The notes: generated by a model not told the origin, from the letters alone. A DNA stretch of 26,779 nt from an uncultured Gammaproteobacteria bacterium (GCA_964357305.1 CAYHKX010000001.1:1-26779); one strand, 5' to 3'; counted from the first letter of the stretch, positions 490 to 25,413 are shown. Program-made: numbers and translations.

Positions 490-2601
490 ATGAAGGATTT
501 TGATTTCAATATTGATTACGAGCACGAGGTAAATGCCGAGCAGTTTCGGGTTGTGGCGAGCGCTGGTGGGCCGACGTTGGTATTGGCGGGAGCAGGAAGT
601 GGGAAGACACGAACCATTACGTACCGCGTGGCATGGCTTCTTGAGCATGGCGTGCCAACGGACCGTATGCTGCTTCTGACGTTTACGAATAAGGCGGCGA
701 AGGAAATGATGATGCGTGTAGAAGGGTTGCTGAAGGCGTATCCCACCGGCCTTTGGTCCGGAACCTTTCACTCCATTGCGAACCGAATGCTTCGGATGTA
801 TGGATCGCAAACTGGGTTTGGAAGCGATTTTTCGATTTTAGACGAAGACGACGCGAACGATTTAATGAAAATGTGCATCAAAGAATTGAAGATCGACACG
901 AAGGCAAAACGTTTCCCCAGTGCGGGCGTGCTGCGCAGTTATATTTCATACAGCGCAAATGCACGTATTCCATTGAAGGCAGTTGTCGAGTCACGCGCAC
1001 AGCACTTTGGTGGAATATTTCCGGAAATTCAGATGGTCGCAGAACGCTATGCCTCGGCCAAGCGCACTGCGCGCAGCATGGATTTTGACGATCTCTTGTT
1101 GCAACTACTCTTTCTTTTACAGGAGAACACCATGGTTCGCGAACAGCTCGCGAACCGATTTCAGTTCATTCTGGTGGACGAGTTTCAGGATACGAACATT
1201 ATTCAGTCGGACATTGTTGATATTCTCGCCAGTGTGTACCGGAATGTTCTCGTGGTGGGCGACGACGCGCAGAGTATCTATTCATTCCGTGCGGCGGAGA
1301 TTCGGAATATTCTCGATTTTTCTCAGCGCTACCCGGACGCGCAGACCTTCAGGCTTGTCACAAACTACCGATCGACCCCGGAGATTCTTGCGGTTGCAAA
1401 CGCGGTCATTGCGAATAACGCCGAACAATTTGAGAAAGAGCTGGTGTCTGCGCGACCGTCTGGTGAAAAACCGAATGTCGTGCCGACACATGATGCGCGT
1501 GAGGAGGGGCAATACGTAGTGGAGCAGATCCTGAGCTTGATCAATGAGGGAATAGCATTGAAGAATATTGCCGTGTTATTCCGTGCAGCGTTTCATTCGC
1601 AGGCCGTGGAATTTGAACTCATGAAGCACGCAATCCCGTATAAATATCGGGGCGGCATGAAGTTTTTTGAGCGTGCACACATAAAAGACGCCGTTTCGCA
1701 TCTTCGCTTGCTTCGCAATGGTCGTGATGTTGTGGCATGGCTTCGATCTCTGCAAATTCAACCAGGTCTTGGATTGACGACGAGCCAGAAGATTGCTGAG
1801 CAGATGGCGCAACACGAAAGCGTGCGTGACGCCTTGGAAGCGCCACCAAAGCTCGCAGCACGTGCGACGGAAGGGTTTCGTCACACATCCAACATTCTTC
1901 GCGCCATGCTCGCGGCGTCGATTCCCACGAGCGCCGTGCGCGCATTTGCATCGCATGATTCGTATCGACTGTACCTGGAGGCTGAGTATCCCAATTATCG
2001 TGAACGTTTGGACGATCTTGAACAGCTCGCGGTGTTCGCGGAACAATATCGTGATTTGGGAGACTTCTTAGACGCGATGACGTTGGCAGGGGATTTTTCT
2101 GGAAAAATCGAACACCCGGAATCGGACGTCGGACGTCGGACGTCGGATGAATCTGAAGATACATTGATTCTCTCAACCATTCATCAAGCCAAAGGCCTTG
2201 AGTGGGACGCCGTGTTTGTGATTCATTGTGCCGGTGGCATGTTTCCGAGCGATCGGAGCATGGGTGAGCGTGGTGGGCTCGAGGAAGAGCGTCGATTGTT
2301 TTACGTCGCGGCAACGCGCGCGCGTGCGAAGCTGTATTTCACGTACCCACTCTCAACCGGTTTTGAATCAATCGATATTCGTGAGCCGTCGCCATTTATT
2401 CAAGAGATTCCCCGGGGCATGATAGAAACTGTTCGGGTAAGGCGAACGTTGCCTTCCTGGTCGCAGCCAAGGGTTTACAACGCACAACGTCCTACGTCCT
2501 ACGCACAAGATCCATTTGACGAACCCACAATCGTGCTCGACGCGATGGGAGAGACCGTGGTAAAAAAGAGTGTACCAGCATCGTTTTTGGGAGACTATTA
2601 A
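490..2601 (+). CDS. pcrA: UvrD/PcrA-family SF1 ATP-dependent DNA helicase
   Basis: Motifs LAGAGSGKT (Walker A), LLTFTNKAA, VDEFQD, VGDDAQSIYSFR, NYRST, STIHQAKGLEW and EERRLFYVAATRA. Confidence 0.95.
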   Translation: MKDFDFNIDYEHEVNAEQFRVVASAGGPTLVLAGAGSGKTRTITYRVAWLLEHGVPTDRMLLLTFTNKAAKEMMMRVEGLLKAYPTGLWSGTFHSIANRMLRMYGSQTGFGSDFSILDEDDANDLMKMCIKELKIDTKAKRFPSAGVLRSYISYSANARIPLKAVVESRAQHFGGIFPEIQMVAERYASAKRTARSMDFDDLLLQLLFLLQENTMVREQLANRFQFILVDEFQDTNIIQSDIVDILASVYRNVLVVGDDAQSIYSFRAAEIRNILDFSQRYPDAQTFRLVTNYRSTPEILAVANAVIANNAEQFEKELVSARPSGEKPNVVPTHDAREEGQYVVEQILSLINEGIALKNIAVLFRAAFHSQAVEFELMKHAIPYKYRGGMKFFERAHIKDAVSHLRLLRNGRDVVAWLRSLQIQPGLGLTTSQKIAEQMAQHESVRDALEAPPKLAARATEGFRHTSNILRAMLAASIPTSAVRAFASHDSYRLYLEAEYPNYRERLDDLEQLAVFAEQYRDLGDFLDAMTLAGDFSGKIEHPESDVGRRTSDESEDTLILSTIHQAKGLEWDAVFVIHCAGGMFPSDRSMGERGGLEEERRLFYVAATRARAKLYFTYPLSTGFESIDIREPSPFIQEIPRGMIETVRVRRTLPSWSQPRVYNAQRPTSYAQDPFDEPTIVLDAMGETVVKKSVPASFLGDY
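2122..2149. repeat. 7-bp tandem repeat (TCGGACG)x3 + TCGGATG inside the helicase CDS
   Basis: Read directly. The reverse complement gives CGACGTC units; the translation is SDVGRRTSD. Confidence 0.9.
2476..2510. repeat. Degenerate 7-bp tandem array in the helicase C-terminal linker
   Basis: TACAACG CACAACG TCCTACG TCCTACG CACAAGA; translation YNAQRPTSYAQD. Confidence 0.8.
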
Positions 2602-2610
2602 TTTGCATCT

Positions 2611-3759
2611 ATGTCCTCACATGACTACGCGGCTCGATCATTGGAATCGCATAAACAGCATGCGGGAAAGTGGGCGGTGACGAGTGTCATGCCACTTGAG
2701 ACGCAGGACGATCTTTCCATCGCATACACGCCAGGTGTTGCAGCGCCGTGTCTTGCGATTGCGGAAGACAAATTGGCTGCGTACGACCTCACGATGAAAG
2801 GGCGCGCGGTTGCAGTGGTGTCTGACGGTTCATCCGTGCTCGGCCTTGGCAACATCGGCCCAGAAGCGGGTCTTCCAGTCATGGAGGGGAAGGCGGTATT
2901 ATATAAAAAGTACGCAAACATCGATGCGGTGCCTATTGTGCTTGCAAGCCAGAAGGCGGACGATATTGTGGAGGCAGTGCGTATGATTGCGCCAACATTT
3001 GGCGGAATTCATTTGGAAGATATTGCGGCGCCGGTATGTTTTGAGGTGGAGCAACGGTTGATTGAGCTTCTCGACATTCCGGTCATGCACGACGATCAGC
3101 ATGCTACGGCAATTGTTGCACTTGCGGGGCTGATGAATGCATCCAAGGTTGTTGGCCGTCGCCTTGCATCCATGACCGTGGTCGTGAATGGCGCAGGTGC
3201 GGCGGGTGTGGCAATCACACGATTGCTCATTGATGCCGGCGTGGAGAACGTGGTGCTCGTGGACTCTAGGGGTATCATCGGTACTCACCGCGCCGATCTT
3301 TCGGGGGAGAAGGCATCACTTGTTTCACTCACAAACACCCGCGCGATCGAGGGCGGACTTGCGGAAGCGATGACTGGTGCAGATGTGTTTATTGGTGTGA
3401 GCAAACCGCACCTTGTGAGCCAAGACATGGTGCGAAGCATGGCGAAAGACCCGATTATTTTTGCACTCGCAAATCCTATTCCGGAGATTGAGGTGGACGA
3501 TGCAAAAGCAGCGGGCGCTGCGGTTATTGCCACTGGAAGATCTGATTATCCAAACCAGATCAACAACGTGCTTGTGTATCCGGGATTATTCCGCGGATTA
3601 CTGAACCGACGCGCAAGTACGCTCACCGCAGCGATGAAAATTGCAGCGGCTAGCGGCCTCGCAAGCATGATTCCGTCACCAACGGCCGAGCAAATTATTC
3701 CAAAAATCATTGACGTGAATCCGGCGGACGTCATTGCTCGCGCCATTGAATCCGTATGA
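2611..3759 (+). CDS. NAD(P)-dependent malic enzyme (short, YtsJ/MaeB N-terminal type)
   Basis: AYTPGVA, VSDGSSVLGLGNIG, PVMEGKA, LEDIAAP, HDDQHATA, NGAGAAG, FALANP, TGRSDYPNQINN. Confidence 0.93.
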   Translation: MSSHDYAARSLESHKQHAGKWAVTSVMPLETQDDLSIAYTPGVAAPCLAIAEDKLAAYDLTMKGRAVAVVSDGSSVLGLGNIGPEAGLPVMEGKAVLYKKYANIDAVPIVLASQKADDIVEAVRMIAPTFGGIHLEDIAAPVCFEVEQRLIELLDIPVMHDDQHATAIVALAGLMNASKVVGRRLASMTVVVNGAGAAGVAITRLLIDAGVENVVLVDSRGIIGTHRADLSGEKASLVSLTNTRAIEGGLAEAMTGADVFIGVSKPHLVSQDMVRSMAKDPIIFALANPIPEIEVDDAKAAGAAVIATGRSDYPNQINNVLVYPGLFRGLLNRRASTLTAAMKIAAASGLASMIPSPTAEQIIPKIIDVNPADVIARAIESV

Positions 3760-4283
3760 TGATGCACAGCTACCGACACCAGGGGCGGAAGTCTGGCGGT
3801 GCATGTTGGAACGTCGTATTCGGTATTGTGGTATTGGGAGTTGGTGCGTTTGCAGTGTACCAACTCATTGGGTGGTTCCGTGCGAGTAACGAAGAAACAA
3901 TTACGGAAGTTGGGGCATCAGCGTTTATCGCGACGGCCTCCACCGTGCCAATGGTGCTCGACAGTAGTGCGGCGATGATGTTCGCAAGTGGAGGTTCGGC
4001 GGGTGTGGTATATCGTCGTGGCACAAGTGAACACGCAGAGTACAACACCGTGTTGAGTCTGCCGGCGCTTGCGCCAGAAACATCCTATGAGATTTGGATG
4101 GTGAAGGAGGGTTTGGTAGATGTACAGACCGTGGGAACACTTGATGTTCGTGCGGACGGTTCCTTCACAAAAGTGTTTTCCCTTGTTGATCCTGCCGAAT
4201 TTTCTACGGTGGTGATTATGTTGGAGCCTCATGACGGCGTGGTAACACCGTCTGGAACGATTATTGTGCAAGGATCGTTTTAA
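3756..4283 (+). CDS. Single-pass membrane protein with an RskA (anti-sigma K) C-terminal-like domain
   Basis: N-terminal TM helix (VVFGIVVLGVGAFAVYQLIGWF), then LPALxxxxxYEIW and VVIMLEPxxGxxxPSGTIIVQG, which resemble RskA_C. ATGA overlap with the upstream stop. Confidence 0.6.
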   Translation: MMMHSYRHQGRKSGGACWNVVFGIVVLGVGAFAVYQLIGWFRASNEETITEVGASAFIATASTVPMVLDSSAAMMFASGGSAGVVYRRGTSEHAEYNTVLSLPALAPETSYEIWMVKEGLVDVQTVGTLDVRADGSFTKVFSLVDPAEFSTVVIMLEPHDGVVTPSGTIIVQGSF

Positions 4284-4286
4284 TCT

Positions 4287-5510
4287 ATGCAATCCATTGG
4301 TATCCTCGGTGCCGGGTACGTCGGCCTCGCAACCGCGGCGAGTTTTGCGGCGCGAGGATTTGTGGTGGTGTGTGCGGATCTGAACACAGAAAAAATTACG
4401 ACGCTTCAGCGCGGCGACCTTCCGTTTTTTGAAGAGGGTATGCTCGACGTGTTTCATGTGGCTTCGACACCGGTGGTGTTTACGACCGATCTCGGGCAAG
4501 CCTGTACATGCGACATTGTGTTTTGTTGTGTTGGTACGCCAAGTGCGGGGGATGGATCCGCTGATCTTTCTTACGTACACAGTGCGGCGAAAGCTTGCGC
4601 CGATATTGCACCGGGAAAACTTTTTGTGATTAAATCGACCGTTCCGCCTGGAACGAGCCGCGCGGTTGCTGCCGAAGTTGAGCATCGGTTGCGTGTGGTG
4701 GCAAACCCGGAATTTCTTCGGGAAGGGAACGCGGTGTATGACGGCGTACACCCGTCGCGCATTGTTCTCGGCGCCGACGATGCAGCTTCGATGGAAGTTT
4801 TGAAATCGGTATATGTCGGTGTCGATGCGCCGATTGTTGCAACGGATACCGTGACCGCAGAAATGGTGAAGTACGCGAGCAATAGTTTTTTGGCGACGAA
4901 AATTAGTTTTATTAATGAGATCGCGAATCTTTGTGACGTGGTTGGCGCAGACGTGCGATCCGTTGCTCATGGCATGGGCCTCGATGATCGCATCGGCGCA
5001 AAATTTTTACAGCCAGGGCCAGGCTATGGCGGAAGCTGTTTTCCAAAAGACGTGCGTGCGCTGATGCATCTGGGTGAATCCGTCGGTGTGCCATTGCAGA
5101 TTCTTTCTGCAACGGCTGCGGTGAATTTCGAACGGCAAGCGTTGCCGTATTGCCGCCTTATTGATGCGCTTGGATCACTTCAGGGCAAACGGATTGCAGT
5201 GTGGGGCCTGGCATTTAAGCCGGGAACTGATGACGTTCGTGATGCGCCAGCACTTGCACTGCTTCAACGGTGCCTTGCTGACGGTGCTGATGTTGTGGCA
5301 TACGATCCGTGCGTGAAACAGCTCTCTCAAGAGTTTTCCTCGGTTTCCATGGGCGTCGATGCACGACATACCACCACGAATGCAGATGCACTCGTGGTGA
5401 TGACTGATTGGCCAGAGTTTGCAGAAATCGATCGTGGAGCAATTCTTGGGGCAATGCGTGGAACGTGCATTATCGATCCACGATACGCGCTCGCGAAGCA
5501 TGTGTCGTGA
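4287..5510 (+). CDS. ugd: UDP-glucose/GDP-mannose 6-dehydrogenase
   Basis: GAGYVG Rossmann motif, CVGTP, IKSTVPPG, NPEFLREG, KYASNSFLATKISFINE, GYGGSCFPKD, GLAFKPGTDDVRDAP. Confidence 0.95.
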   Translation: MQSIGILGAGYVGLATAASFAARGFVVVCADLNTEKITTLQRGDLPFFEEGMLDVFHVASTPVVFTTDLGQACTCDIVFCCVGTPSAGDGSADLSYVHSAAKACADIAPGKLFVIKSTVPPGTSRAVAAEVEHRLRVVANPEFLREGNAVYDGVHPSRIVLGADDAASMEVLKSVYVGVDAPIVATDTVTAEMVKYASNSFLATKISFINEIANLCDVVGADVRSVAHGMGLDDRIGAKFLQPGPGYGGSCFPKDVRALMHLGESVGVPLQILSATAAVNFERQALPYCRLIDALGSLQGKRIAVWGLAFKPGTDDVRDAPALALLQRCLADGADVVAYDPCVKQLSQEFSSVSMGVDARHTTTNADALVVMTDWPEFAEIDRGAILGAMRGTCIIDPRYALAKHVS

Positions 5511-5516
5511 TACAAT
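5508..5516 (+). promoter_or_regulatory. Putative extended -10 promoter (TGaTACAAT) overlapping the ugd stop
   Basis: TG-n-TAnnnT ending 10 nt before ATG 5527. Confidence 0.5.
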
Positions 5517-5526
5517 GCTGGGAGCT

Positions 5527-6270
5527 ATGAGGTTGTTTCGCAGCAAGAAATCGTCATCAAAAACGCTTGGAACGTGCCGCATTCCGCTGAATGAGGAAGA
5601 GCGCATTGCGTGCCGACAAAGCGGCATGATTCCGCATGCTTCGGAAATTACGTGGCGTGTGCTTCGAATTATGGCGGAGTTGGTGGAAGGATTTCAAATG
5701 CTTACCACCGTGGACCGCGAAGTGACAATTTTTGGTTCGTCACGTGCGCATCCGAATAGTCACTGGTACAAAGAAGCACACCAACTCGGGCGTATGCTCG
5801 GAAAAGATGGGTTCACCATTGTGACTGGTGGCGGTCCAGGCATTATGGAGGCGGCAAACAAAGGCGCATTCGAAGTAGGTGCGGAGTCGGTTGGTTTGAA
5901 TATTCAACTCCCACGCGAACAATATTTGAATGCGTATGTCACGCGTTCGCATGGGTTTCATTATTTTTTTACGCGAAAGGTTATGTTGGCGGCAGCGGCG
6001 CAGGCCTATGTGATTTTTCCAGGGGGGTATGGCACGCTCGATGAAACATTTGAGCTCATGACGCTTGTGCAGACCGGAAAATCGTCCCGTATGCCGATTA
6101 TTTTAGTCGGTAAGGAGTTTTGGCAACCGTTGATTGCGTGGCTTGAGGTAAGCGTGTACGGTACCCAGGATGCAATCGATTATGAGGATCTCCGTATTCT
6201 GACGTTGGTCGATTCTGCAAAAGAGGCGTACGACATTGTTGTCACATCGCCAACCCGTGAACTTTTCTAG
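5527..6270 (+). CDS. LOG family (TIGR00730-like) nucleotide phosphoribohydrolase
   Basis: TGGGPGIMEAANKGA, FFTRKVM and PGGYGTLDE (PGGxGTxxE). Start moved from 5419 to 5527 to remove a 92-nt overlap with ugd and to match the -10 box. Confidence 0.9.
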   Translation: MRLFRSKKSSSKTLGTCRIPLNEEERIACRQSGMIPHASEITWRVLRIMAELVEGFQMLTTVDREVTIFGSSRAHPNSHWYKEAHQLGRMLGKDGFTIVTGGGPGIMEAANKGAFEVGAESVGLNIQLPREQYLNAYVTRSHGFHYFFTRKVMLAAAAQAYVIFPGGYGTLDETFELMTLVQTGKSSRMPIILVGKEFWQPLIAWLEVSVYGTQDAIDYEDLRILTLVDSAKEAYDIVVTSPTRELF

Positions 6271-6275
6271 AACGT

Positions 6276-17926: not shown

Positions 17927-18787
17927 ATGTCTGCCCCAGTCATTCGATCGTGTGAAGCCTGGAATGATTTTGCGCTTTTAGATTCTGGGAACTTTGAGAA
18001 ATGTGAACGGTTTGGCGATATCGTCATGATTCGTCCGGAGCCGCAGGCGTTGTGGAAGAAAGGCGACGAAACATTGTGGCAATCCGCCCATCTTTCGTAT
18101 AAGCGACAGGGACGTGAAGGGGAGTGGACAGTGAATACGCCAGTGCCAGATGCATGGAATATTCGGTGGGAAGATCTTACGTTCCGTATTCGTCCAACGT
18201 CATTTAAACACACAGGATTATTTCCGGAACAGGCCAGTAATTGGGCGTGGATTCGGGAAAATGTGAAACCGGGTATGCGCGTGTTGAATGCGTTTGGCTA
18301 TACCGGTGCCGCAACGCTTGCTGCAGCGAGTGCTGGTGCCGATGTCACGCATGTGGATGCGAGTAAACCGGTGGTGACGTGGGGGAAGGAAAACGCGGAT
18401 TTGTCTGGACTCGGAGCACGGCCGATTCGGTGGATTGTGGATGACGTTCAAAAATTTATTGCCCGTGAAGTACGACGAGGAAATGTGTACGATGCCATCT
18501 TTATGGATCCACCTGCGTTTGGCCGCGGGCCAGAAGGTGAGCTTTGGCAGTTTGAAGATCACCTTCCAGCACTTCTTGATGATTGTATAACACTGCTGAA
18601 TCGTGAGCATGGATTCCTGCTGGTGAATGCGTACTCTCTTGGGTTTCCCGCGCTATCGATTGAAAATCTTGTCCGTTCAACATTGCCGTGGCCGCACCAT
18701 GTTTCTGCAGTTGAGTTGACGCTCAAAGAAACTTCGCCACGTGGTTTTGAGCTCCCAGCCGGCATTGGTATTCGGTGTGGATGGTAA
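17927..18787 (+). CDS. Class I SAM-dependent methyltransferase (RlmI/RlmK-like)
   Basis: KHTGLFPEQ, VLNAFGYTG, VDASK, MDPPAFG. Start moved to ATG 17927, 1 nt after the uppP stop. Confidence 0.85.
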   Translation: MSAPVIRSCEAWNDFALLDSGNFEKCERFGDIVMIRPEPQALWKKGDETLWQSAHLSYKRQGREGEWTVNTPVPDAWNIRWEDLTFRIRPTSFKHTGLFPEQASNWAWIRENVKPGMRVLNAFGYTGAATLAAASAGADVTHVDASKPVVTWGKENADLSGLGARPIRWIVDDVQKFIAREVRRGNVYDAIFMDPPAFGRGPEGELWQFEDHLPALLDDCITLLNREHGFLLVNAYSLGFPALSIENLVRSTLPWPHHVSAVELTLKETSPRGFELPAGIGIRCGW

Positions 18788-18828
18788 AGTGGAAATTAAA
18801 GATGAAATTGAGTACGATGAATGAATCT

Positions 18829-19308
18829 ATGGGAGAAGAATCGGAAATCAAGAAGATTTTAGTCATTGTACAAGGATTGCAAGGGAGTTTTTCGGGTTTG
18901 CAAGAGGACGTTTCCATTTTGAAGAGTGATGTTTCCAGTCTGAAAAGTGATGTTTCTAGTTTGAAGAGTGATGTTTCCAGTCTGAAAAGTGATGTTTCTA
19001 GTTTGAAGGATGACGTTTCGGGATTACAAGAGACTGCTGAGTTCATGCAAGAGCATATGGCTACGAAGGAAGATCTTGCACTGGTACGAGCCGAGATGGC
19101 TACGAAGGAAGATCTTGCGCGAGTACGGGCAGAGATGGTTACGAAGGAGGATCTCCTGATGCTGAAGTCGGAAGTTTTCGAGCACGTTGATGGTTTCGCT
19201 CACCAGAATCAGAAATTTGATCATGAATTGGTCGCGGCTCAGGCAAAATTCAATCGTGTGGAAGAACGCGTAGAGATTTTAGAATTACAGGCAGGAATTG
19301 GGGCGTAG
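18829..19308 (+). CDS. Coiled-coil repeat protein (heptad SDVSSLK and 13-aa MATKEDLAxVRAE repeats)
   Basis: Heptad periodicity throughout. The start is ambiguous (18775/18802/18817/18829); 18829 was chosen because it has TATG context and TACGAT (18813-18818) lies 10 nt upstream. Confidence 0.75.
   Translation: MGEESEIKKILVIVQGLQGSFSGLQEDVSILKSDVSSLKSDVSSLKSDVSSLKSDVSSLKDDVSGLQETAEFMQEHMATKEDLALVRAEMATKEDLARVRAEMVTKEDLLMLKSEVFEHVDGFAHQNQKFDHELVAAQAKFNRVEERVEILELQAGIGA
18918..19008 (+). repeat. Perfect 42-bp (2x21) coding tandem repeat
   Basis: TTTGAAGAGTGATGTTTCCAGTCTGAAAAGTGATGTTTCTAG at 18918 and 18960, plus a partial third unit at 19002. Confidence 0.9.
19057..19155 (+). repeat. 39-bp coding tandem repeat (about 2.5 copies)
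   Basis: ATGGCTACGAAGGAAGATCTTGC at 19057 and 19096, and ATGGTTACGAAGGAGGATCTC at 19135. Confidence 0.85.
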
Positions 19309-19969: not shown

Positions 19970-21793
19970 ATGGCTGTCTCACAAGAAAGCATCCGAAATT
20001 TTTGCATTATTGCCCACATTGACCATGGCAAATCCACGCTGTCTGACCGGTTGCTTGAGGTTACTGGCACCGTCGATACGCGCGTCATGAAGGAGCAATT
20101 TCTGGATTCCATGGATATTGAACGAGAACGGGGGATTACCATTAAATTGGCTCCGGCTCGCATGCTTTGGACGAAGGAAGGGGTGGAATATACACTGAAC
20201 CTCATTGATACTCCGGGTCACATCGACTTTAACTATGAGGTGAGTCGGTCGCTTGCTGCGGTGAACGGAGCGATATTATTGGTTGACGCGACGCAAGGCG
20301 TTCAGGCACAGACCATCGCCAACCTGTACCTCGCCGTCGAAGAAAATCTGCACATTATCCCGGTGCTGAATAAGATCGATCTTCCTGCGGCAGACGTACC
20401 AACGCGCAAGGCGGAACTCGTGAAGCTTCTTGGCTGTGCGCCAGAAGATATTCTTGCAGTCTCGGGGAAAACTGGTGAAGGCGTGCGCGAGTTGCTCGAT
20501 GTGGTGATTGATCGGATTCCGTCCCCGGAAGGGAAGGTTGATGCCGCCCCACGTGCGGTGATTTTTGATTCCGCATATGACGATTACAAGGGCGTTGTGG
20601 CATATGTTCGCGTGATGGACGGTGTATTTAAGAAGCGCGACAGGATTCAGATGTTGGCAACGGATGCACAGGGTGAGCTTCTGGAACTCGGTGCACTTGC
20701 GCCAAAGTTTTCGCCGCGTGACGCATTGGAAACGGGCCAGATTGGTTACATGGTGACGGGGCTGAAAGACATTCGCGCATGTCGTGTGGGCGACACCATG
20801 ACGGTGATCGAACAACGTGTGGGCAGTCGGCAGTCGGGCGTCGAGGCGTTGCCGGGGTATCGCGAGGTACGGCCAATGGTGTTTGCTGGTGTGTTCCCTG
20901 CGCAGGGTGATGAATACAGTTCACTTCGGGATGCAATGGACCGCTTAAAGTTGAACGACGCCGCACTCGTGTTTGAACCAGAGCATTCACCGGCACTCGG
21001 GTACGGTTTCCGTTGCGGATTTTTAGGCATGCTACACCTTGAAATTCTCAAGGAGCGATTGAGTCGCGAATTCACCATCGATCTCGTCGTCACGTTGCCG
21101 AGTGTGGCATATCATGTCTACATGAACGGAAAACCAGAGTTTTCTGTGGTAAAGAGCGCACTCGATTTGCCAGACCCGAGCGTTATAGATCACATTGATG
21201 AACCATGGGCCCGCGTGGACATGATTACGCCGACGGACTATATCGGCAACGTCATGACTCTTGCGCAAGAACGGCGCGGCATGTATGTGAATACGGATTA
21301 CCTTTCTGAGGGGCGTGCCGTATTGCATTATGAACTTCCGCTCTCGGCCATTATTGTTGATTTTAACGATAAGCTGAAGGGTGCATCGAGTGGGTACGCG
21401 TCCATGAGTTATGAAGTCTTTACCTATCGCAATGCTGATGTAGTCAAGCTCGATATTCTTGTTGCTGACGATGCGGTTGATGCGTTCGCAATGTTGGTGT
21501 ATCGCGACGAAGTAGAGCGCGTGGGCCGCCGTGTGCTTGACGTATTAAAAGACAGTATTCCACAGCAGCAATTTGTGATTAAATTGCAAGCCGCGATTGG
21601 TGGAAAGATTGTGGCAAGCGAAAGAATTTCTGCTCTGCGAAAAGATGTGACTGCGGGATTGTATGGCGGAGACGCCACGCGAAAATTAAAGCTGCTTGAG
21701 AAGCAGAAGAAAGGAAAGAAGAAAATGCTCGCCATGGGTGTTGGACGCGTGGAGATTCCAAGCGAAGCGTACATGAAGGTGCTCAAACGATAA
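19970..21793 (+). CDS. lepA: Elongation factor 4
   Basis: IRNFCIIAHIDHGKSTLSDR, ERERGITIK, DTPGH, NKID, GFRCGFLGMLHLEI, RKDVTAGLYGGD. Confidence 0.98.
   Translation: MAVSQESIRNFCIIAHIDHGKSTLSDRLLEVTGTVDTRVMKEQFLDSMDIERERGITIKLAPARMLWTKEGVEYTLNLIDTPGHIDFNYEVSRSLAAVNGAILLVDATQGVQAQTIANLYLAVEENLHIIPVLNKIDLPAADVPTRKAELVKLLGCAPEDILAVSGKTGEGVRELLDVVIDRIPSPEGKVDAAPRAVIFDSAYDDYKGVVAYVRVMDGVFKKRDRIQMLATDAQGELLELGALAPKFSPRDALETGQIGYMVTGLKDIRACRVGDTMTVIEQRVGSRQSGVEALPGYREVRPMVFAGVFPAQGDEYSSLRDAMDRLKLNDAALVFEPEHSPALGYGFRCGFLGMLHLEILKERLSREFTIDLVVTLPSVAYHVYMNGKPEFSVVKSALDLPDPSVIDHIDEPWARVDMITPTDYIGNVMTLAQERRGMYVNTDYLSEGRAVLHYELPLSAIIVDFNDKLKGASSGYASMSYEVFTYRNADVVKLDILVADDAVDAFAMLVYRDEVERVGRRVLDVLKDSIPQQQFVIKLQAAIGGKIVASERISALRKDVTAGLYGGDATRKLKLLEKQKKGKKKMLAMGVGRVEIPSEAYMKVLKR
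20821..20843. repeat. Degenerate 7-bp array inside lepA
   Basis: GGGCAGT CGGCAGT CGGGCGT CG; the reverse complement is CGACGCC CGACTGC CGACTGC CC; translation GSRQSGV. Confidence 0.6.
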
Positions 21794-21795
21794 TC

Positions 21796-22287
21796 ATGAA
21801 TCGGAAGCAATTTACGAAGTTTTATGATGCGAACGTGAAGCGAATCTACCGCTATGTGTATTTTCGCGTTGGGAAGAATCGGGACGTTGCGGAAGATCTC
21901 ACATCGGAAATTTTCATGAAGGCACTTGAGCATTTTGAGGACTATGATCCGAAGATCTCCGAATCTGCATGGATTTACAGAATTGCGCACAACAAAGTGC
22001 TGAATCATCGGCGGGACAGTAAGGTGACGTTGGATGTGCAAAATGGGGCAATTGAGGCGGAAATTGGGGGAGTCGATCATCGTGGACGTATGAATGAACG
22101 GCTTGATATCGAGGCTCTGCTCGCAAAACTTACGCCAGAGGAACGGGAACTTGTAACGTTAAAATACCTTTCTGGGTATAAGTACTCAAGCATGGGGGAG
22201 ATGCTTGGCAAATCTGCCGAGGCGGTAAAAGTTGCAACGCACCGGGCGATGCAAAAACTCAAAACGCTATGTTCTCGCTCATCATAA
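21796..22287 (+). CDS. ECF-type RNA polymerase sigma factor
   Basis: Region 2 (AEDLTSEIF, AWIYRIAHN) and region 4 (LTPEERELVTLKY...VKVATHRA); 163 aa. Confidence 0.92.
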   Translation: MNRKQFTKFYDANVKRIYRYVYFRVGKNRDVAEDLTSEIFMKALEHFEDYDPKISESAWIYRIAHNKVLNHRRDSKVTLDVQNGAIEAEIGGVDHRGRMNERLDIEALLAKLTPEERELVTLKYLSGYKYSSMGEMLGKSAEAVKVATHRAMQKLKTLCSRSS

Positions 22288-22853
22288 TGCTCTGGAAGGA
22301 ACGGCGTGCGGCAAATCCGTCGCGCCAGTTTCGCGTTGCGCTCCGGGAGAAGGCTGATACCTTGCTTCCACTTGAAACTCGCACAGAACACCGTTATGGA
22401 ACATTTCGTCGTGCGGCGATCGGCTTTGCGGTTATGCTCCCAGTATTTTTAGGCGGAACAAGTGTATATGCCTATTCAAGTACATCAGTCACCGAAGGAA
22501 GTACGTTGTATCCGGTGAAACGCGGTATTGAATCCGTGCAATTACGTTTCCGAACTGAGCCGAATGATCTCGCGGCGTACCGGTTGAAATTGTATGAGCG
22601 ACGTTTAGATGAAGCGGAACGATTGCTTGAATCACGTGAAGCAATGATTGAAACATTAAATGCGGCGGTTGAGGTAAATGATGTGCTTGAATCGTTGGAG
22701 CAATTTGAGGGACAGCATGAAGAGATCCGTGAATATTTGCAAAGAAATCAGGAGCGGTACGAAAGAGTCCGCTTGCGAGTATCCGGCGATGATTCAAGTG
22801 ATGAATCTTTGCTTCGAACTCCGTCCTTCATGATCCGAAGAATACAGGATTGA
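22287..22853 (+). CDS. Putative anti-sigma factor: TM helix plus DUF5667-like domain
   Basis: TAATG overlap with the sigma stop; TM segment AAIGFAVMLPVFLGGTSVYAY; GSTLYPVKRGIESVQL and ERRLDEA are DUF5667-like. Confidence 0.7.
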   Translation: MLWKERRAANPSRQFRVALREKADTLLPLETRTEHRYGTFRRAAIGFAVMLPVFLGGTSVYAYSSTSVTEGSTLYPVKRGIESVQLRFRTEPNDLAAYRLKLYERRLDEAERLLESREAMIETLNAAVEVNDVLESLEQFEGQHEEIREYLQRNQERYERVRLRVSGDDSSDESLLRTPSFMIRRIQD

Positions 22854-22884
22854 TTTTCAGAGATTTTCGTATTGCATAATACAA

Positions 22885-22910
22885 CTCCGGCGACCTTTCG
22901 GCCGTCGGAG
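22885..22910 (-). terminator. GNRA-capped hairpin between convergent genes, probably terminating the minus-strand gene
   Basis: Minus-strand RNA CUCCGACGGCC-GAAA-GGUCGCCGGAG followed by UUGUAUUAU; a second small hairpin lies at 22914-22930. Confidence 0.6.
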
Positions 22911-22930
22911 CATCGTGCGTTCGGGGCACG

Positions 22931-23500
22931 TTAGTGGAAGTTTTCTCCTTCATCTTCGGTGTCGATCGCTCCGATGATGTTGAGAAACTGGCAGATAATC
23001 GATTCAATAAGCAAACGATTATCCATGTTAATTGCACAGCGCTGGACCGAGTTTTCATCGAGAATCTCTTGGATGATGAAGAGATAGACCCCCTGTGAGG
23101 GGTTAGCGATCGCGAGGTAGTACAGACCATCGATTTCATCTTCCTGTACCCAGATCGTACCCAGTGGCGTGATATCGATCTGCCCGTAATTGGAGACATC
23201 GAGCTGGGGTTGACCTGCGTTGATCTCAGTGACCTGACAATCGCTCGTAACGATGTCACCCTCGGTGACATAGAGATACGTCGTTACAAGCCAGTTCAGT
23301 TCATTTTTGAGTTTCGCATTCGTGATAGGATGAACCGCGTCTTCGGTAACATGGACTGGAATGCGTTCGTGATCCAGTGGAACGAAGTTCGGCGAATTTC
23401 CGTCGTGGATTCCCTTGATCACGACCCCGACCATTCCGACATCATCAATGTGGGCACTAAAGACGAAAGTATAGTCGCGCAAGACAGTGTCGCTTGTCAT
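22931..23500 (-). CDS. Hypothetical acidic protein, counter-oriented
   Basis: Fills the gap between + strand genes. AGGAG lies 5 nt upstream of ATG 23500 (alternative start 23533) and a hairpin follows the stop. Confidence 0.65.
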   Translation of the reverse strand: MTSDTVLRDYTFVFSAHIDDVGMVGVVIKGIHDGNSPNFVPLDHERIPVHVTEDAVHPITNAKLKNELNWLVTTYLYVTEGDIVTSDCQVTEINAGQPQLDVSNYGQIDITPLGTIWVQEDEIDGLYYLAIANPSQGVYLFIIQEILDENSVQRCAINMDNRLLIESIICQFLNIIGAIDTEDEGENFH

Positions 23501-23605
23501 GGAAGCTCCTGTATGGCGGGCAATTATAGTCATAATTTCTTGGATAAATCAATCCCATCCCCATGAGTACATGACGGCGCGGCAGATCGTTGCTACCCTG
23601 TGTGT

Positions 23606-23704
23606 ATGATATTCAATGGAGCATTTGCACGAAAAGTATGGGCGGTTGTGGCGATATTGGTGATGGTTTCCATGGTTGCGAGCATGGCAATGTTTGGCTA
23701 CTGA
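23606..23704 (+). CDS. Small (32 aa) single-TM protein
   Basis: MIFNGAFARKVWAVVAILVMVSMVASMAMFGY*: basic residues then a hydrophobic helix. TGcTACCCT lies 6 nt upstream and the stop is 1 nt before the recJ ATG. Confidence 0.65.
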   Translation: MIFNGAFARKVWAVVAILVMVSMVASMAMFGY

Positions 23705-23705
23705 T

Positions 23706-25406
23706 ATGGAAACCCCTTGGATTATTGCCCCGCGAAGTCACGATGACCTCGTGACGCAACTTTTGGTGAATCGCGGCGTTCCTCCAGAAGAGCGGGATGC
23801 GTTTCTATCGCCGAATTGGGAAGTGGGAACATATTCACCATTTGCGTTCACGCGAATGCAAGAAGCGGTCGACGCGATGTTTGGCGCGCTTGAACGCGCC
23901 GAATCGATTGTGATTCATGGCGACTACGATGCAGATGGCGTGTCCGGATCTTCACTCTTGTTTGGAGTTTTGACCGATATTGCCGAGCGCCTGAATTTTT
24001 CGCTCGACCTTGGGGTCTTTCTTCCAGATAGGGAGAAAGACGGATACGGTGTGGCAATGCATACGATTGAACGTTGTATTGCGGAAGGAAAAAAGACGAT
24101 CGTCACGGTGGATTGTGGCATTGCAAACGGTCTCGAATTGAATCGTGCTCATGACGCCGGGATTACAACGATTGTGTGCGATCACCACCAGCTTGGCACG
24201 CACTTTCCCGATCATGCGATTATTCTCCATCCACTTACTCCAGGGGAGACATATCCCAATAAAACGCTCTGCGGAACTGGTGTCGCATTCAAATTCGCAT
24301 CGGGACTCATTGCTGAAGCGCGAAAACGCGGTGCAGATTTTCCTGAAGGGTATGAAAAATGGATGCTCGATCTTGTTGCGATCGCGACGGTGACCGATGT
24401 GATGCCGCTTACGGGAGAGAATCGTGTTCTCGAATATTTCGGATTAAAAGTCTTGAACAAGACACGTCGTCCAGGAATTCGCGCAATTCTTGCGGCGTCT
24501 GGTACTGAGCTTGGTGGGATCGACACGCAGACAATTGGATTTCGCATCGGCCCTCGATTGAATGCCGCTGGAAGACTTTCGAGTGCGAAGATTGCGTTCG
24601 ACGCGATTGTAGCGAAAACACCTGAGGAAGCGAGCGTCGCTGCGGCCTCGCTCGAGCAATTGAATCGCGACCGTCAAAATATTTTCAAATCGTCTTACAA
24701 ACAAGCAGAAAGTATCGCCAGGGACATGCTTGCTGAACATCAGGTCCTCGTTATCGCGAGTGAAGAATGGCTTCCGGGAATTGTCGGGCTTATTGCGGGG
24801 AAACTCGTGAACGATTTTGGCCGGCCAGCATTCGCGTTTACGAGGATTGAGGGAAAATATGTGGGTAGTGGGCGAACCGCTGGTGGACTCCATCTTGTTG
24901 ACGCAATGCATGCGTGCGGTGACATCTTTTTGCGCAAAGGTGGTCACCCACAGGCATGTGGACTTTCCATGGCATCAACGATTGAAATTGATCTGTTTAG
25001 AACGCGCGTGAACGATTTTGCGCGTGAGATATTTGGTAGCGCTGGGGTTTCACCGTCGCTCGCTATTGATGCTGTCGTAGCACCATCGACCATCACTCTT
25101 GATCTTCTTGCTGTGCTTGAAGCATGCGCGCCGTTTGGAGAGGGAAACCGTCCGCCAATATTTGCCACCATGGGTGCAAACGTGATGGCGGCGGAAACCA
25201 TGGGTGCAACGGGCGGACACCTTCGTCTCACCGTTCTTGATGACACTGGAGCCGTGGGTAAATTTGTTGGGTTTGGTATTGGCGATAAGGCGCGTGAACT
25301 GACCATGGGGACTGTTGTGGACATTGCGTACGAACCTGGGGTGAACGTGTGGAATGGGAAAAAGAACGTACAGTGTAGAATAGTGGAGGTAAAGAAGAGT
25401 ACGTAG
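23706..25406 (+). CDS. recJ: Single-stranded-DNA-specific exonuclease RecJ
   Basis: HGDYDADG, PDREKDGYG, VTVDCG, CDHH, ATVTDVMPL, PRLNAAGRL, GSGRT, PFGEGN. Start moved to 23706. Confidence 0.96.
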   Translation: METPWIIAPRSHDDLVTQLLVNRGVPPEERDAFLSPNWEVGTYSPFAFTRMQEAVDAMFGALERAESIVIHGDYDADGVSGSSLLFGVLTDIAERLNFSLDLGVFLPDREKDGYGVAMHTIERCIAEGKKTIVTVDCGIANGLELNRAHDAGITTIVCDHHQLGTHFPDHAIILHPLTPGETYPNKTLCGTGVAFKFASGLIAEARKRGADFPEGYEKWMLDLVAIATVTDVMPLTGENRVLEYFGLKVLNKTRRPGIRAILAASGTELGGIDTQTIGFRIGPRLNAAGRLSSAKIAFDAIVAKTPEEASVAAASLEQLNRDRQNIFKSSYKQAESIARDMLAEHQVLVIASEEWLPGIVGLIAGKLVNDFGRPAFAFTRIEGKYVGSGRTAGGLHLVDAMHACGDIFLRKGGHPQACGLSMASTIEIDLFRTRVNDFAREIFGSAGVSPSLAIDAVVAPSTITLDLLAVLEACAPFGEGNRPPIFATMGANVMAAETMGATGGHLRLTVLDDTGAVGKFVGFGIGDKARELTMGTVVDIAYEPGVNVWNGKKNVQCRIVEVKKST

Positions 25407-25413
25407 TGCGTAA
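25398..25413. repeat. 7-bp repeat dimer spanning the recJ stop codon
   Basis: AGTACGT AGTGCGT AA; the reverse complement is TTACGCA CTACGTA CT. The recJ TAG at 25404-25406 lies inside it. Confidence 0.55.

What the first reader, a model, noticed from the sequence alone, without database searches (positions are those of the whole stretch)
2122..25413. Dispersed 7-bp repeat family that colonises housekeeping genes in frame
One heptamer family (consensus approx. C[TGA]ACG[TC][CA]) appears in short arrays at seven places, in both orientations: 2122-2149 (CGACGTC x3, minus), 2476-2510, 10064-10091, 13640-13666, 13724-13753, 20821-20843 (more diverged) and 25398-25413. The four arrays inside CDS bodies do not disrupt the frame and fall in loops that vary in these families: just before helicase motif V of UvrD/PcrA, the UvrD C-terminal linker, the loop before FGIVQGG in Tgt, and the LepA domain II-III linker. 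They add low-complexity peptides (SDVGRRTSD, YNAQRPTSYAQ, QRPTPNVQRP, GSRQSGV). Identical units (CGACGTC, CTACGCA, CTACGTC) occur in both coding and intergenic copies, so the signal is at DNA level and not protein-driven. Inference: a selfish or enzyme-written micro-repeat that survives only where the net insertion keeps the frame. It could be a binding site for a DNA-binding protein, a DNA-uptake tag or an RNA-structure element. I recall heptamer repeats being noted in other bacteria but cannot verify any link.
Basis: partly seen in the sequence, partly recalled or inferred. Interest (0 to 1): 0.8.

Follow-up and report, generated by a model that had tools for sequence, protein, structure and literature searches.

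The report
Heptamer-repeat hairpin elements colonising genes
A tiny groundwater bacterium has recently been invaded by about a hundred short arrays of a 7-base repeat, which sit next to start and stop codons and, read through in frame, inside flexible loops of housekeeping proteins; they look like gene-less relatives of the hairpin cassettes that carry the unexplained "23S rRNA intervening-sequence" four-helix-bundle gene.

Summary
All seven window sites hold arrays of a heptamer with an ACG/CGT core. Genome-wide (0.71 Mb), ACG recurs three times at 7-nt spacing 190 times, against 7-27 times at other spacings. That gives about 85 true arrays, mostly of 3-4 units. The closest sister species (about 80% nt identity) has no such excess.

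Intergenic copies are 72-76-nt hairpins, (NNCGTAG)4-loop-(CTACGNN)4, with a conserved 16-nt loop. They are net insertions relative to the sister genome and lie within a few nt of start or stop codons. Copies inside genes are single, stop-free arms in hypervariable loops. They replace loop sequence (PcrA +9 and 0 nt, Tgt about +15, LepA +15) rather than adding multiples of 21 nt.

The neighbouring Y1/RAYT gene is not the partner, and no reverse transcriptase is present. The link is to four-helix-bundle genes (PF05635). Across the order these genes sit between inverted heptamer arms. In six genomes the dispersed heptamer matches the arms of one resident cassette. The movement mechanism is unknown.

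This scan has reported the same element class before on other DNA from other phyla. In print only fragments exist (Coxiella IVS, Xanthomonas GGGAATC, TAACTGA repeats).

The parts
2122..2147 (+). In-frame heptamer array (TCGGACG) x3.7 inside the PcrA/UvrD-like helicase gene (490-2601). It encodes SDVGRRTSD. The G-rich NNCGTCG strand is the mRNA strand.
   Evidence: TRF reports 100% matches and the sequence confirms it. Pfam finds UvrD-helicase and UvrD_C. Ten relatives all have 57 nt here with no 7-nt period, against 66 nt in this genome, a net +9 nt. An independent run covers 1900-2167 with no gaps.
2476..2510 (-). In-frame array ACGCACA ACGTCCT ACGTCCT ACGCACA in the C-terminal linker of the same helicase. 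It encodes YNAQRPTSYAQ. The mRNA reads the CTACGNN orientation, which has no stop codon.
   Evidence: Relatives have 57-60 nt of unrelated sequence here, so the net change is 0 to -3 nt. Contigs from two other runs are identical.
10064..10092 (-). In-frame array CAACGTC CAACACC CAACGTC CAACGCC in Tgt (9494-10699), just before LLFGIVQGG. It encodes QRPTPNVQRP.
   Evidence: The loop varies in length among 13 relatives; G000 is 15 nt longer than sister G008. The same loop in G024 carries an unrelated heptamer array, (ACGTCGC)3. In G005 and G019 it carries a different mini-palindrome.
13640..13666 (+). Left intergenic arm (GGACGTC GTGCGTA GGACGTA), starting 5 nt after the secF stop codon.
   Evidence: It is absent at the orthologous G008 site. 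It pairs with the right arm in the predicted fold: -49 kcal/mol, z = -5.1.
13686..13715 (+). Ancestral terminator-like hairpin now enclosed by the two arms. It is not itself part of the repeat family.
   Evidence: A GC stem plus T-run is present in both G000 and G008 at the same place.
13724..13753 (-). Right intergenic arm (CTACGCA CGACGTT CTACGAC CTACGCA), in the usual CTACGNN-to-ATG orientation, ending 30 nt before the ATG at 13781.
   Evidence: It is a net insertion of about 32 nt relative to G008. The orientation rule appears genome-wide: arms end a median of 8 nt before a same-strand start codon.
20814..20843 (+). Degenerate in-frame array (CAACGTG TGGGCAG TCGGCAG TCGGGCG) in the LepA domain II-III linker. 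It encodes EQRVGSRQSG.
   Evidence: Seven relatives have exactly 30 nt here (P-V-x-T-x) against 45 nt in G000. That is 30 new nt replacing 15. A strain about 93% identical, from another run, has the same length.
25398..25413 (+). Two-unit remnant (GTACGTA GTGCGTA) overlapping the RecJ stop codon and abutting the next ATG.
   Evidence: It is too short to be significant alone and is assigned only by unit identity with the intergenic arms.

Best explanation
The arrays are gene-less members of a family of small hairpin elements whose two arms are each about four tandem heptamers: (NNCGTAG)4-loop-(CTACGNN)4.

The full form of this element type carries a four-helix-bundle gene (PF05635/TIGR02436, the '23S rRNA intervening-sequence protein' family) in the loop. 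This is the design known from ORF-bearing intervening sequences of 23S rRNA.

Shown:
- The family expanded in this species after it split from its sister species.
- Whole hairpins (about 72-76 nt), solo arms (about 30 nt) and one gene-bearing cassette (about 460 nt) occupy sites that are empty in the sister genome, mostly within a few nt of start or stop codons.

Inferred:
- Insertion is not frame-aware. Selection keeps only copies that do no harm.
- A heptamer array cycles through all three frames every three units, so a copy inside a gene must be stop-free in every phase.
- Whole CGTAG-type hairpins are therefore excluded from genes. Only single arms of stop-free units (GGACGTC, GGACGTT, or CTACGNN read in sense) persist, in hypervariable surface loops, where they overwrite a similar length of linker.

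Unknown:
- The copying mechanism. No transposase, reverse transcriptase or target-site duplication is associated.
- The four-helix-bundle protein, or host replication and repair, is the candidate driver.
- At RNA level the hairpins may be RNase III substrates, as rRNA intervening sequences are.
For: (1) Copy-paste rather than local growth.
- At least 8-11 intergenic copies share a non-repeat 16-nt loop, CCRCTCAGGCTNCC: 11 matches in G000 against 2 in G008.
- The copies fold at -20 to -45 kcal/mol; z is -3 to -7.6 for most, with the two weakest copies at -1.7 and 0.0.

(2) Filled versus empty sites against G008.
- Hairpins are net +51 to +111 nt.
- A solo arm is a clean +30 nt at C22:1456.
- The four-helix-bundle cassette at C21:5631-6103 replaces 13 nt in G008, 3-6 nt upstream of an ATG.

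(3) Lineage specificity.
- 66 pattern hits in G000, against 0-3 in 12 genomes of the same genus.
- Bursts are patchy across the order.

(4) Link to PF05635.
- G000 has one such gene, flanked by inverted (AATGGAA)n and (TTCCATT)4 arms, the genome's second dispersed heptamer family. G008 has none.
- Among 30 PF05635 loci of the order, 17 have a strong period-7 flank, against 2 of 351 control windows. 21 share inverted 10-mers between flanks, against 10 of 351.
- The dispersed heptamer matches the arms of one resident cassette in G024, G043, G105, G058 and G037, and for family 2 in G000.
- All 12 genomes with 6 or more pattern hits have the gene.

(5) Selection filter.
- CGTAG makes up 75% of intergenic units, 1 of 63 sense-strand CDS units and 13% of antisense CDS units.
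- CDS arrays lie in unalignable linkers flanked by conserved sequence.
- The same Tgt and LepA loops are occupied by unrelated small repeats in other genomes.

(6) In print.
- The Coxiella 23S IVS has an S23p ORF preceded by tandem GACAGAT heptamers, with RNase III cutting at the first repeat (PMC4990558).
- Xanthomonas heptamer arrays prefer four units, form inverted pairs and lie within 50 bp of ORF ends (PMC4692102).
Against: - The window family (NNCGTAG) has no matching four-helix-bundle cassette in the assembled 92% of the genome. The only resident cassette has the other heptamer.
- No enzyme, target duplication or excision has been seen.
- Contigs from other runs show no presence/absence or copy-number polymorphism, although the data are thin and contigs drop rare variants.
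- The variable dinucleotides of the two arms are not complementary more often than shuffled partners: 23 of 58 against 41% expected. Pairing rests on the constant 5-nt cores, and selection for an RNA stem is not shown.
- CDS arrays are compositionally distinct: homogeneous GGACGTC/T, even where TAG would be harmless. They rarely show a clean insertion length. They could therefore arise by a different route than the intergenic hairpins.
- The PF05635 correlation is across related genomes and is not phylogenetically corrected. 66% of genomes in the order carry the gene in any case.
Confidence: 0.6

Rival explanations
1. These are ordinary heptanucleotide microsatellites. Each array arose in place by polymerase slippage, which is said to favour 7-nt units, with no transfer between loci.
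For: - Heptanucleotides are the commonest long simple-sequence-repeat class in many bacteria, and slippage was proposed as the cause (Mrazek et al. 2007, as summarised in PMC4679880).
- CDS arrays are mostly perfect, homogeneous repeats.
- CTACGNN x4 arrays occur in many phyla.
Against: - The same unit family sits at about 85 loci in one genome and at none in the sister species with the same base composition.
- There is a conserved non-repeat loop.
- Arrays are capped at 3-5 units, with no long tail.
- Arms are heterogeneous, with constant CGTAG and variable NN, which slippage does not produce.
- A whole 72-76-nt unit is inserted relative to G008.
- No length variation is seen across runs.
Confidence: 0.1
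2. These are REP/REPIN sequences mobilised by the Y1 (RAYT-like) transposase encoded at window 25853-26488.
For: - A Y1_Tnp gene lies in the window.
- The intergenic elements are inverted doublets, and their units contain GTAG, the tetranucleotide of E. coli REPs (the GTAG point is from general knowledge).
Against: - RAYT-like genes occur in 24 of 31 relatives that lack the heptamers, including orthologues at 60-67% identity.
- Both G000 copies are flanked by other palindromes: TGYTAAAGCTWAGCTTTRRCA, which also occurs 10 times in G008, and GAAACCCGGTTTC. Neither is flanked by heptamers.
- REPs are extragenic, whereas about half of these arrays are inside genes.
Confidence: 0.05
3. The arrays are domesticated binding sites (operators or leader elements) for a protein that reads contiguous heptads. 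They form a regulon at promoters or 5' leaders, and the coding copies are incidental.
For: - Arms have a fixed orientation and end a median of 8 nt before start codons. 19 of 76 lie within 60 nt, against about 3% by chance.
- Five of the seven positions are constant.
- TAACTGA repeats just upstream of start codons were interpreted as regulator sites (PMC4679880).
- Contiguous 7-bp heptads are the operators of the plasmid omega repressor (general knowledge, not tested here).
Against: - A regulon of more than 30 sites gained by 70-nt insertions since a recent split is unlikely.
- The downstream genes were not classified by function here, so it is untested whether they share one.
- Half of the arrays are inside genes.
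- The same architecture surrounds a selfish-looking gene cassette.
- This reading is compatible with later co-option and does not exclude the best explanation.
Confidence: 0.12
4. Selection at the protein level produced the arrays, for example recurrent gain of an RRxTSD-type motif in loops.
For: The encoded peptides (GRRTSDV, RRPTSDV, QRPTSNV) are hydrophilic and share R-R-x-T-S.
Against: - The nucleotide units and codons are identical everywhere.
- The same DNA appears on both strands and in non-coding hairpins.
- A 7-nt period gives the same cyclic peptide in all frames as a by-product.
Confidence: 0.03

Closest known systems
ORF-bearing intervening sequences (IVS) of 23S rRNA carrying an S23p / PF05635 four-helix-bundle gene (Coxiella burnetii, Leptospira; PMC4990558)
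   Same: - A stem formed by inverted flanks encloses a small four-helix-bundle ORF.
- Tandem heptamers lie directly upstream of the ORF start, and RNase III cuts at the first repeat.
- G000's own gene (TIGR02436; nearest solved structure is Xanthomonas XCC0516, PDB 2GSC) sits between inverted heptamer arms.
- The distribution is sporadic and suggests horizontal transfer.
   Different: - The copies here are in intergenic spacers and inside protein genes, not in rRNA.
- The window's copies have no ORF.
- Dozens of copies share one heptamer family.
- RNA excision is untested. Coding copies are translated, not removed.
Dispersed heptameric repeats GGGAATC (Xanthomonas) and GGGGAYT (Nostoc) (Rehm et al. 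2015, PMC4692102); cyanobacterial STRR
   Same: - 7-nt units are dispersed genome-wide.
[quoted passage not shown]
- Many occur as convergent inverted pairs.
- Most lie within 50 bp of ORF starts or stops.
   Different: - Those repeats are G-rich and were explained by G-quadruplex formation. The units here cannot form G4 yet show the same four-unit preference.
[quoted passage not shown] Here about half are in frame inside conserved genes.
- That paper drew no link to a gene family.
TAACTGA direct repeats of marine Beggiatoaceae, Cyanobacteria and Bacteroidetes (MacGregor 2015, PMC4679880)
   Same: - Sets of 2-6 heptamers lie mostly within a few nt upstream of start codons.
- The phylogenetic distribution is patchy.
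- The few coding copies are confined to the stop-free orientation and to protein ends.
   Different: - That case is one invariant unit with stop codons in all forward frames.
- Almost no inverted pairs occur.
- Internal in-frame copies are rare.
Rickettsia palindromic elements (RPE) and other selfish repeats translated inside genes (reviewed in PMC10969869)
   Same: - Small repeats are inserted in frame in housekeeping genes.
- They are tolerated at surface loops.
- The same permissive sites are hit repeatedly.
   Different: - RPEs are whole palindromes of 100-150 bp with no 7-nt substructure.
- Here the coding copies are single arms of 17-34 nt that replace rather than add sequence.
- No sequence similarity is expected, and none was looked for beyond architecture.
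REP/REPIN elements with RAYT transposases; Correia-type MITEs
   Same: - They are high-copy, hairpin-forming inverted doublets next to genes.
- They are lineage-specific families.
   Different: - No cognate RAYT is found (tested, not met).
- No target-site duplication is seen.
- The arms are built of heptads.
- Copies occur inside genes.

Membership tests
Dispersed heptanucleotide repeat families (STRR / GGGAATC / TAACTGA type) | Tandem units of exactly 7 nt, in excess over other periods | tested here: met
   56 lag-7 runs against 1 at lag 8. ACG x3 occurs 190 times at spacing 7, against 7-27 at other spacings.
Dispersed heptanucleotide repeat families (STRR / GGGAATC / TAACTGA type) | The same unit family at many unlinked loci in one genome | tested here: met
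   96 merged chains, about 85 after removing chance chains, spread over more than 60 contigs.
Dispersed heptanucleotide repeat families (STRR / GGGAATC / TAACTGA type) | Short arrays with a preferred number of about four units, close to ORF starts or stops | tested here: met
   Chains of 4 units: 62. Of 3 units: 60. Of 5 units: 2. Arms end a median of 8 nt before a start codon.
Dispersed heptanucleotide repeat families (STRR / GGGAATC / TAACTGA type) | Unit-number variation between strains | tested here: inconclusive
   No indels at the arrays in contigs from four runs. Depth is about 4x and contigs hide rare variants.
IVS-type heptamer-armed cassette with PF05635 gene | Two inverted arms of tandem heptamers able to form a stem | tested here: met
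   Searches show this genome-wide. In the window the arms are 13640-13666 and 13724-13753.
IVS-type heptamer-armed cassette with PF05635 gene | A four-helix-bundle (PF05635/TIGR02436) ORF between the arms | tested here: not met
   No window copy encloses such an ORF. The genome has one cassette, at C21:5684-6040, with arms of the other heptamer family. The window copies are therefore filed as gene-less relatives, not as cassettes.
IVS-type heptamer-armed cassette with PF05635 gene | Dispersed gene-less arrays share their heptamer with a resident cassette | tested here: inconclusive
   Met in G024, G043, G105, G058 and G037, and for G000 family 2. Not met for the window's NNCGTAG family in the assembled 92% of the genome.
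IVS-type heptamer-armed cassette with PF05635 gene | Location in 23S rRNA helix 25 or 45, and excision by RNase III | not testable with these tools
   No 23S rRNA is present in the assembly. An RNase III gene is present at C91:2643-3026. No RNA data were available.
REP/REPIN-RAYT system | The RAYT gene is flanked by its cognate repeats, and the repeats co-occur with that RAYT lineage | tested here: not met
   Both RAYT genes are flanked by other palindromes. RAYT is present in 24 of 31 relatives without heptamers.
MITE of a DDE transposon | Terminal inverted repeats plus a target-site duplication and a related autonomous IS | tested here: not met
   Inverted termini are present. No duplication is seen at about 20 filled/empty sites. 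No transposase appears among the 20 largest G000-specific ORFs. Transposase families were not searched exhaustively.
Rickettsia palindromic elements | A whole palindromic element of 100-150 bp inserted in frame, adding its full length | tested here: not met
   Coding copies are single arms of 17-34 nt. The net change has mode 0 aa and ranges from -12 to +16 aa.
Contingency-locus (phase-variation) repeats | Changes in unit number switch a gene on or off; located in surface or antigen genes | tested here: not met
   The arrays are in PcrA, Tgt, LepA and other conserved genes. A change of one 7-nt unit would be lethal to the frame. No variation is seen.

The most novel reading that the evidence does not exclude
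The four-helix-bundle (PF05635 / S23p / Avd-like) protein is the sequence-specific factor of a transposase-less class of mobile elements. On this reading:
- It recognises arrays of about four heptamers matching its own cassette arms.
- It promotes copying of arm units of about 30 nt, or of whole hairpins, into DNA near start and stop codons and into genes.

This would give one explanation for three things: 23S rRNA intervening sequences, the unexplained dispersed heptanucleotide repeats of many bacteria (STRR, GGGAATC, TAACTGA), and in-frame loop insertions.
Probability: 0.2. Interest if true: 0.9.

Novelty: new variant of a known kind. Interest (0 to 1): 0.62.

Why it matters
Three puzzles have stood apart for decades:
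- why heptanucleotide repeats are the commonest long simple repeats in many bacteria;
- what the '23S rRNA intervening-sequence' four-helix-bundle proteins do;
- how intervening sequences spread.

This genome ties the three together in a compact, recent and well-controlled case.
- One species holds about a hundred copies, and its sister species holds none.
- Clean filled and empty sites exist for hairpins, solo arms and a gene-bearing cassette.
- In several genomes the dispersed repeat matches the arms of one resident cassette.

The case also shows how a non-triplet repeat can live inside essential genes. It must be stop-free in every phase and confined to hypervariable loops. The same loops of Tgt and LepA are permissive targets for unrelated small repeats, which matters for annotation and for reading 'insertions' in proteins of small-genome bacteria.

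The four-unit preference is seen here with units that cannot form G-quadruplexes. That questions the published G4 explanation for the same preference in Xanthomonas and Nostoc.

Tried and rejected
- RAYT/Y1 transposase as partner: rejected.
- Reverse transcriptase or DGR-type writer: PF00078 is absent from G000 and G008, although present in 102 of 162 genomes of the order.
- Gene-content subtraction of G000 against G008: 131 ORFs had no hit in G008. The 20 largest were scanned in Pfam and none was a transposase, nuclease or polymerase candidate. Some, such as rpoC, were only missing from the fetched part of G008.
- Strain polymorphism from public runs: only low-depth contigs were available, with no indels at the arrays. 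This is uninformative about mechanism.
- Covariation of the variable dinucleotides between the two arms: none beyond shuffled partners.
- Rfam: no family matched. A mir-448 match at 23 bits, against a gathering score of 90, is chance.
- Search for an IVS in this organism's 23S rRNA: the gene is not in the assembly.
- Taxon name: the exact-protein look-up and the Atlas search gave nothing usable. The organism is described only as a groundwater bacterium with a small genome. CPR/Patescibacteria membership is my inference from genome size and habitat.
- Global scan for CTACGNN x4: more than 120 hits in many phyla. Such arrays are not specific to this clade, and the hits were not analysed further.
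- Assembly artefact: rejected.

Full report
**What is in the window.**
- Four lie inside open, conserved genes: two in a UvrD/PcrA-type helicase (490-2601), one in Tgt (9494-10699) and one in LepA (19970-21793).
- Two are inverted arms in the secF-to-next-gene spacer.
- One is a two-unit remnant on the RecJ stop codon.
- The units share a CGT/ACG core. Read on the G-rich strand they are NNCGT[A/C/T]G.

**Is it more than chance?**
The window is contig C1 of a 709,656-bp, 143-contig assembly with 51% GC.
- Exact self-matches at lag 7 of at least 17 nt number 56. The counts are 17 at lag 6, 13 at lag 5 and 1 each at lags 8 and 9.
- Three ACG at 7-nt spacing occur 190 times, against 7-27 times at spacings 4-12. 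For ACGT the figures are 70 against 0.
- TRF gives 169 period-7 rows, against 53-60 in order-3 Markov shuffles.
- Merging overlaps gives 96 arrays. About a dozen of these are chance chains in conserved sequence.
- Chain lengths are sharply limited: 60 of three units, 62 of four and 2 of five.
- A second, unrelated heptamer family (TTCCATT/AATGGAA) adds about 25 arrays elsewhere in the genome and none in the window.

**A natural control.**
Thirteen other genomes of the same genus are held.
- The closest is G008, at 88% amino-acid identity in PcrA and about 80% nucleotide identity.
- I fetched 849 kb of it, nearly the whole genome.
- With the same GC content it has 2 lag-7 runs and 14 ACG x3 hits at spacing 7, which is background level.
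- The four-unit pattern ACG(N4)ACG(N4)ACG(N4)ACG hits G000 66 times and the 12 other same-genus genomes 0-3 times.
- Across the order (162 genomes) the signal is patchy: G043 86 hits, G105 60, G062 34, G058 14. Each genome has its own unit.
- The family is therefore a recent, species-level expansion, and similar bursts have happened independently in relatives.

**Not an artefact.**
Contigs from four public groundwater runs in three studies cover the window.
- Contigs from a different study span both PcrA arrays with no gaps.
- A strain about 93% identical spans the LepA site with the same length.
- The same data show no copy-number variation. They are thin (about 4x depth, contigs only).

**Anatomy of the intergenic copies.**
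- The typical copy is AG-(NNCGTAG)3-4, a 14-16-nt loop CCRCTCAGGCTNCC(AA), then (CTACGNN)3-4-CT, 65-76 nt in all.
- The order is always left arm then right arm. The loop occurs in either orientation.
- The loop word C[AG]CTC[AC]GGCT occurs 11 times in G000 and twice in G008.
- Predicted folds are -20 to -45 kcal/mol; z is -3 to -7.6 for most, and -1.7 and 0.0 for the two weakest copies.
- Pairing rests on the constant five-base cores. The variable dinucleotides of the two arms are complementary in 23 of 58 positions, no more than when partners are shuffled (41%).
- Solo arms also exist.
- Aligning flanks to G008 places 84 of 96 arrays at orthologous sites.
- Intergenic elements are net insertions of +51 to +111 nt. 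A solo arm at C22:1456 is a clean +30 nt. No target duplication is visible.
- Arms have a fixed orientation relative to the neighbouring gene, (CTACGNN)n then ATG. They end a median of 8 nt before the start codon.
- In the window the two arms bracket a terminator-like hairpin that G008 also has, so the arms were added around an ancestral structure.

**Anatomy of the coding copies.**
A 7-nt repeat rotates through the three reading frames every three units. An array of three or more units is therefore read in every phase and must lack stop codons in all of them.

The data fit this rule.

| Location | CGTAG share of units |
|---|---|
| Intergenic | 84 of 112 (75%) |
| CDS, G-rich strand is the mRNA | 1 of 63 |
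| CDS, opposite orientation (TAG never read) | 13% |

- Coding arrays are dominated by GGACGTC and GGACGTT, which are stop-free on both strands.
- These encode the cyclic peptides GRRTSDV, RRPTSDV and QRPTSNV.
- A whole CGTAG-type hairpin would always present a TAG-bearing arm on the sense strand. This explains why only single arms are found in genes.

**Insertion or replacement?**

| Site | Relatives | G000 | Net change |
|---|---|---|---|
| First PcrA loop | 57 nt in ten relatives | 66 nt | +9 |
| Second PcrA loop | 57-60 nt | 57 nt | 0 to -3 |
| LepA linker | 30 nt (P-V-x-T-x) in seven relatives | 45 nt | +15; none of the old residues kept |
| Tgt loop | variable length | 15 nt longer than G008 | about +15 |

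- Across 41 conserved genes compared with G008, the net change ranges from -12 to +16 aa with mode 0. There is one clean +10 aa case, at C5:12728.
- The arrays always lie in unalignable linkers between well-conserved blocks.
- The prediction of 21-nt multiples fails. About 25-33 nt of repeat usually overwrites a similar or shorter stretch.
- Whether this is one replacement event or an insertion followed by compensating deletion cannot be told from two genomes.

**Permissive loops.**
- The same Tgt loop carries (ACGTCGC)3 in G024, a different family of the order.
- It also carries an unrelated mini-palindrome (CTCCCCCTTNCNAAGGGGGAG, peptide LPLTKGE) in G005 and G019.
- That palindrome also sits in the LepA linker of G007 and G001.
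- It is dispersed in 11 of 13 genomes of the genus and is absent from G000.
- Independent colonisation of the same loops by unrelated repeats argues for random arrival plus a selective filter, not targeting.

**Who is the partner?**
- The Y1/RAYT-like gene at 25853-26488 occurs in 24 of 31 relatives.
  - It is flanked by a 21-bp palindrome that is equally common in G008.
  - The second RAYT copy (C27) is flanked by GAAACCCGGTTTC palindromes.
  - Neither copy touches heptamers.
- PF00078 reverse transcriptases are absent from G000 and G008.
- The G000-specific ORFs gave no candidate enzyme.

The lead came from relatives.
- In G037 and G058 a 120-aa gene lies between inverted heptamer arrays.
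- That gene family is PF05635/TIGR02436, the 'four helix bundle protein' or 23S rRNA intervening-sequence protein.
- G000 has one copy, at C21:5684-6040. Its nearest solved structure is Xanthomonas XCC0516, PDB 2GSC.
- It is bracketed by (AATGGAA)n and (TTCCATT)4, the genome's second dispersed family.
- Relative to G008 the whole cassette of about 460 nt replaces 13 nt, 3-6 nt upstream of the next gene's ATG, without a target duplication.
- G008 has no PF05635 gene.

Across the order:
- Among 30 PF05635 loci, 17 have a strong period-7 flank, against 2 of 351 control windows.
- 21 share inverted 10-mers between their two flanks, against 10 of 351.
- Each cassette has its own heptamer.
- In G024 (ACGTGCG), G043 (ACGAACN), G105 and G058 (ACGCTAM) and G037 (CTACGNN), the heptamer that is dispersed through the genome is the one forming the arms of a resident cassette.
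- In G024 all five arrays examined are in frame inside long ORFs.
- All 12 genomes with six or more pattern hits have the gene, against 107 of 162 overall. These genomes are related, so this is not an independent test.

**What remains open.**
- The window's own family (NNCGTAG) has no matching cassette in the assembled 92%. The 23S rRNA gene, the classical home of such cassettes, is not assembled.
- No mechanism of movement is shown.
- RNase III is encoded at C91:2643-3026 and has a heptamer hairpin directly upstream of its own start codon. RNA processing was not testable.

**Relation to what is known.**
In print:
- Heptanucleotides are the commonest long simple repeats in many bacteria, and slippage has been proposed as the cause (Mrazek 2007, via PMC4679880).
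- TAACTGA sets of 2-6 units sit just upstream of start codons in Beggiatoaceae, Cyanobacteria and Bacteroidetes, with rare coding copies in the stop-free orientation.
- GGGAATC and GGGGAYT repeats of Xanthomonas and Nostoc prefer four units, often form inverted pairs and lie within 50 bp of ORF ends. They were interpreted as G-quadruplexes.
- The Coxiella 23S IVS has an S23p ORF preceded by three or four GACAGAT heptamers, with the RNase III site at the first repeat.
- I found no paper that links the gene family to dispersed heptamer repeats in general.

Within this scan:
- The heptamer-armed four-helix-bundle cassette and its gene-less, in-frame relatives have been reported repeatedly on other genomes, including Nitrospirota and Alphaproteobacteria.
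- Later checks there kept the observation and priced the 'mobile' reading at 40-50%.
- I reached the cassette link independently, before reading those notes.

This case adds:
- a sister-species control;
- about 20 filled/empty sites, including a gene-bearing cassette;
- matching of dispersed heptamers to resident cassette arms in six genomes;
- the finding that coding copies replace rather than add sequence;
- the four-unit preference in units that cannot form G4.

**Verdict.**

Best reading, at about 0.6: these are gene-less members of the heptamer-armed, IVS-type hairpin element class, recently expanded in this species. The copying mechanism is unknown.

I rate it a new variant of a known, poorly described kind.

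Noticed in passing
Relatives: L106 (G005) and L113 (G019) Tgt loop; L125 (G007) and L126 (G001) LepA linker: A different mini-palindrome, CTCCCCCTTNCNAAGGGGGAG (peptide LPLTKGE), sits in frame in the same Tgt and LepA loops in other genomes. It is dispersed in 11 of 13 genomes of the genus at 1-11 copies, 25 copies in G016 and 9 in G017. It is absent from G000.
   Followed up: partly
G000 contigs outside the window, e.g. C28:375-464, C54:3149-3237, C21:5640-6098: There is a second dispersed heptamer family, TTCCATT/AATGGAA, of about 25 arrays. Typically four units lie directly upstream of an ATG. They also form inverted pairs between divergent genes and form the arms of the genome's only four-helix-bundle gene. 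The family is absent from G008.
   Followed up: yes
window 25829-25851, 26470-26492, 26574-26589: The 21-bp palindrome TGYTAAAGCTWAGCTTTRRCA brackets the RAYT-like gene. It occurs 12 times in G000 and 10 times in G008, so it is an older, conserved dispersed site unrelated to the heptamers.
   Followed up: partly
G000 C27:1200-1990: A second RAYT-like gene (C27:1305-1814, 46% identical to the window's) is flanked on both sides by GAAACCCGGTTTC palindromes.
   Followed up: no
G000 C91:2498-2573 and 2643-3026: The RNase III gene has a complete heptamer hairpin directly upstream of its start codon. This may be chance, but it is suggestive because rRNA intervening sequences are RNase III substrates.
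   Followed up: no
window 18896-19019 and 19057-19154: Longer tandem repeats, with periods of 21/42 nt and 39 nt at 81-92% matches, lie inside the ORF 18775-19308. They are coding repeats of triplet-multiple length and are unrelated to the heptamers.
   Followed up: no
G008 intergenic regions aligned (e.g. opposite G000 C87:651 and C139:556): The sister genome has its own GC-rich palindromes of the form GGATCCCCGC...GCGGGGATCC in spacers where G000 has heptamer arms. Each species of the genus seems to carry a different small-repeat family.
   Followed up: no
L116 (G024 C1:648586-649728) and G024 C1:205763, 330490, 709363, 913587: G024, a complete 1.0-Mb genome, has (ACGTGCG)n arrays that are all in frame inside long ORFs, including Tgt. 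It also has a four-helix-bundle cassette at C1:121978-122286 with arms of the same heptamer.
   Followed up: partly
G000 C66:4489-4543: Runs of poly-G and poly-C lie at a contig end. This is probably an assembly or sequencing artefact.
   Followed up: no
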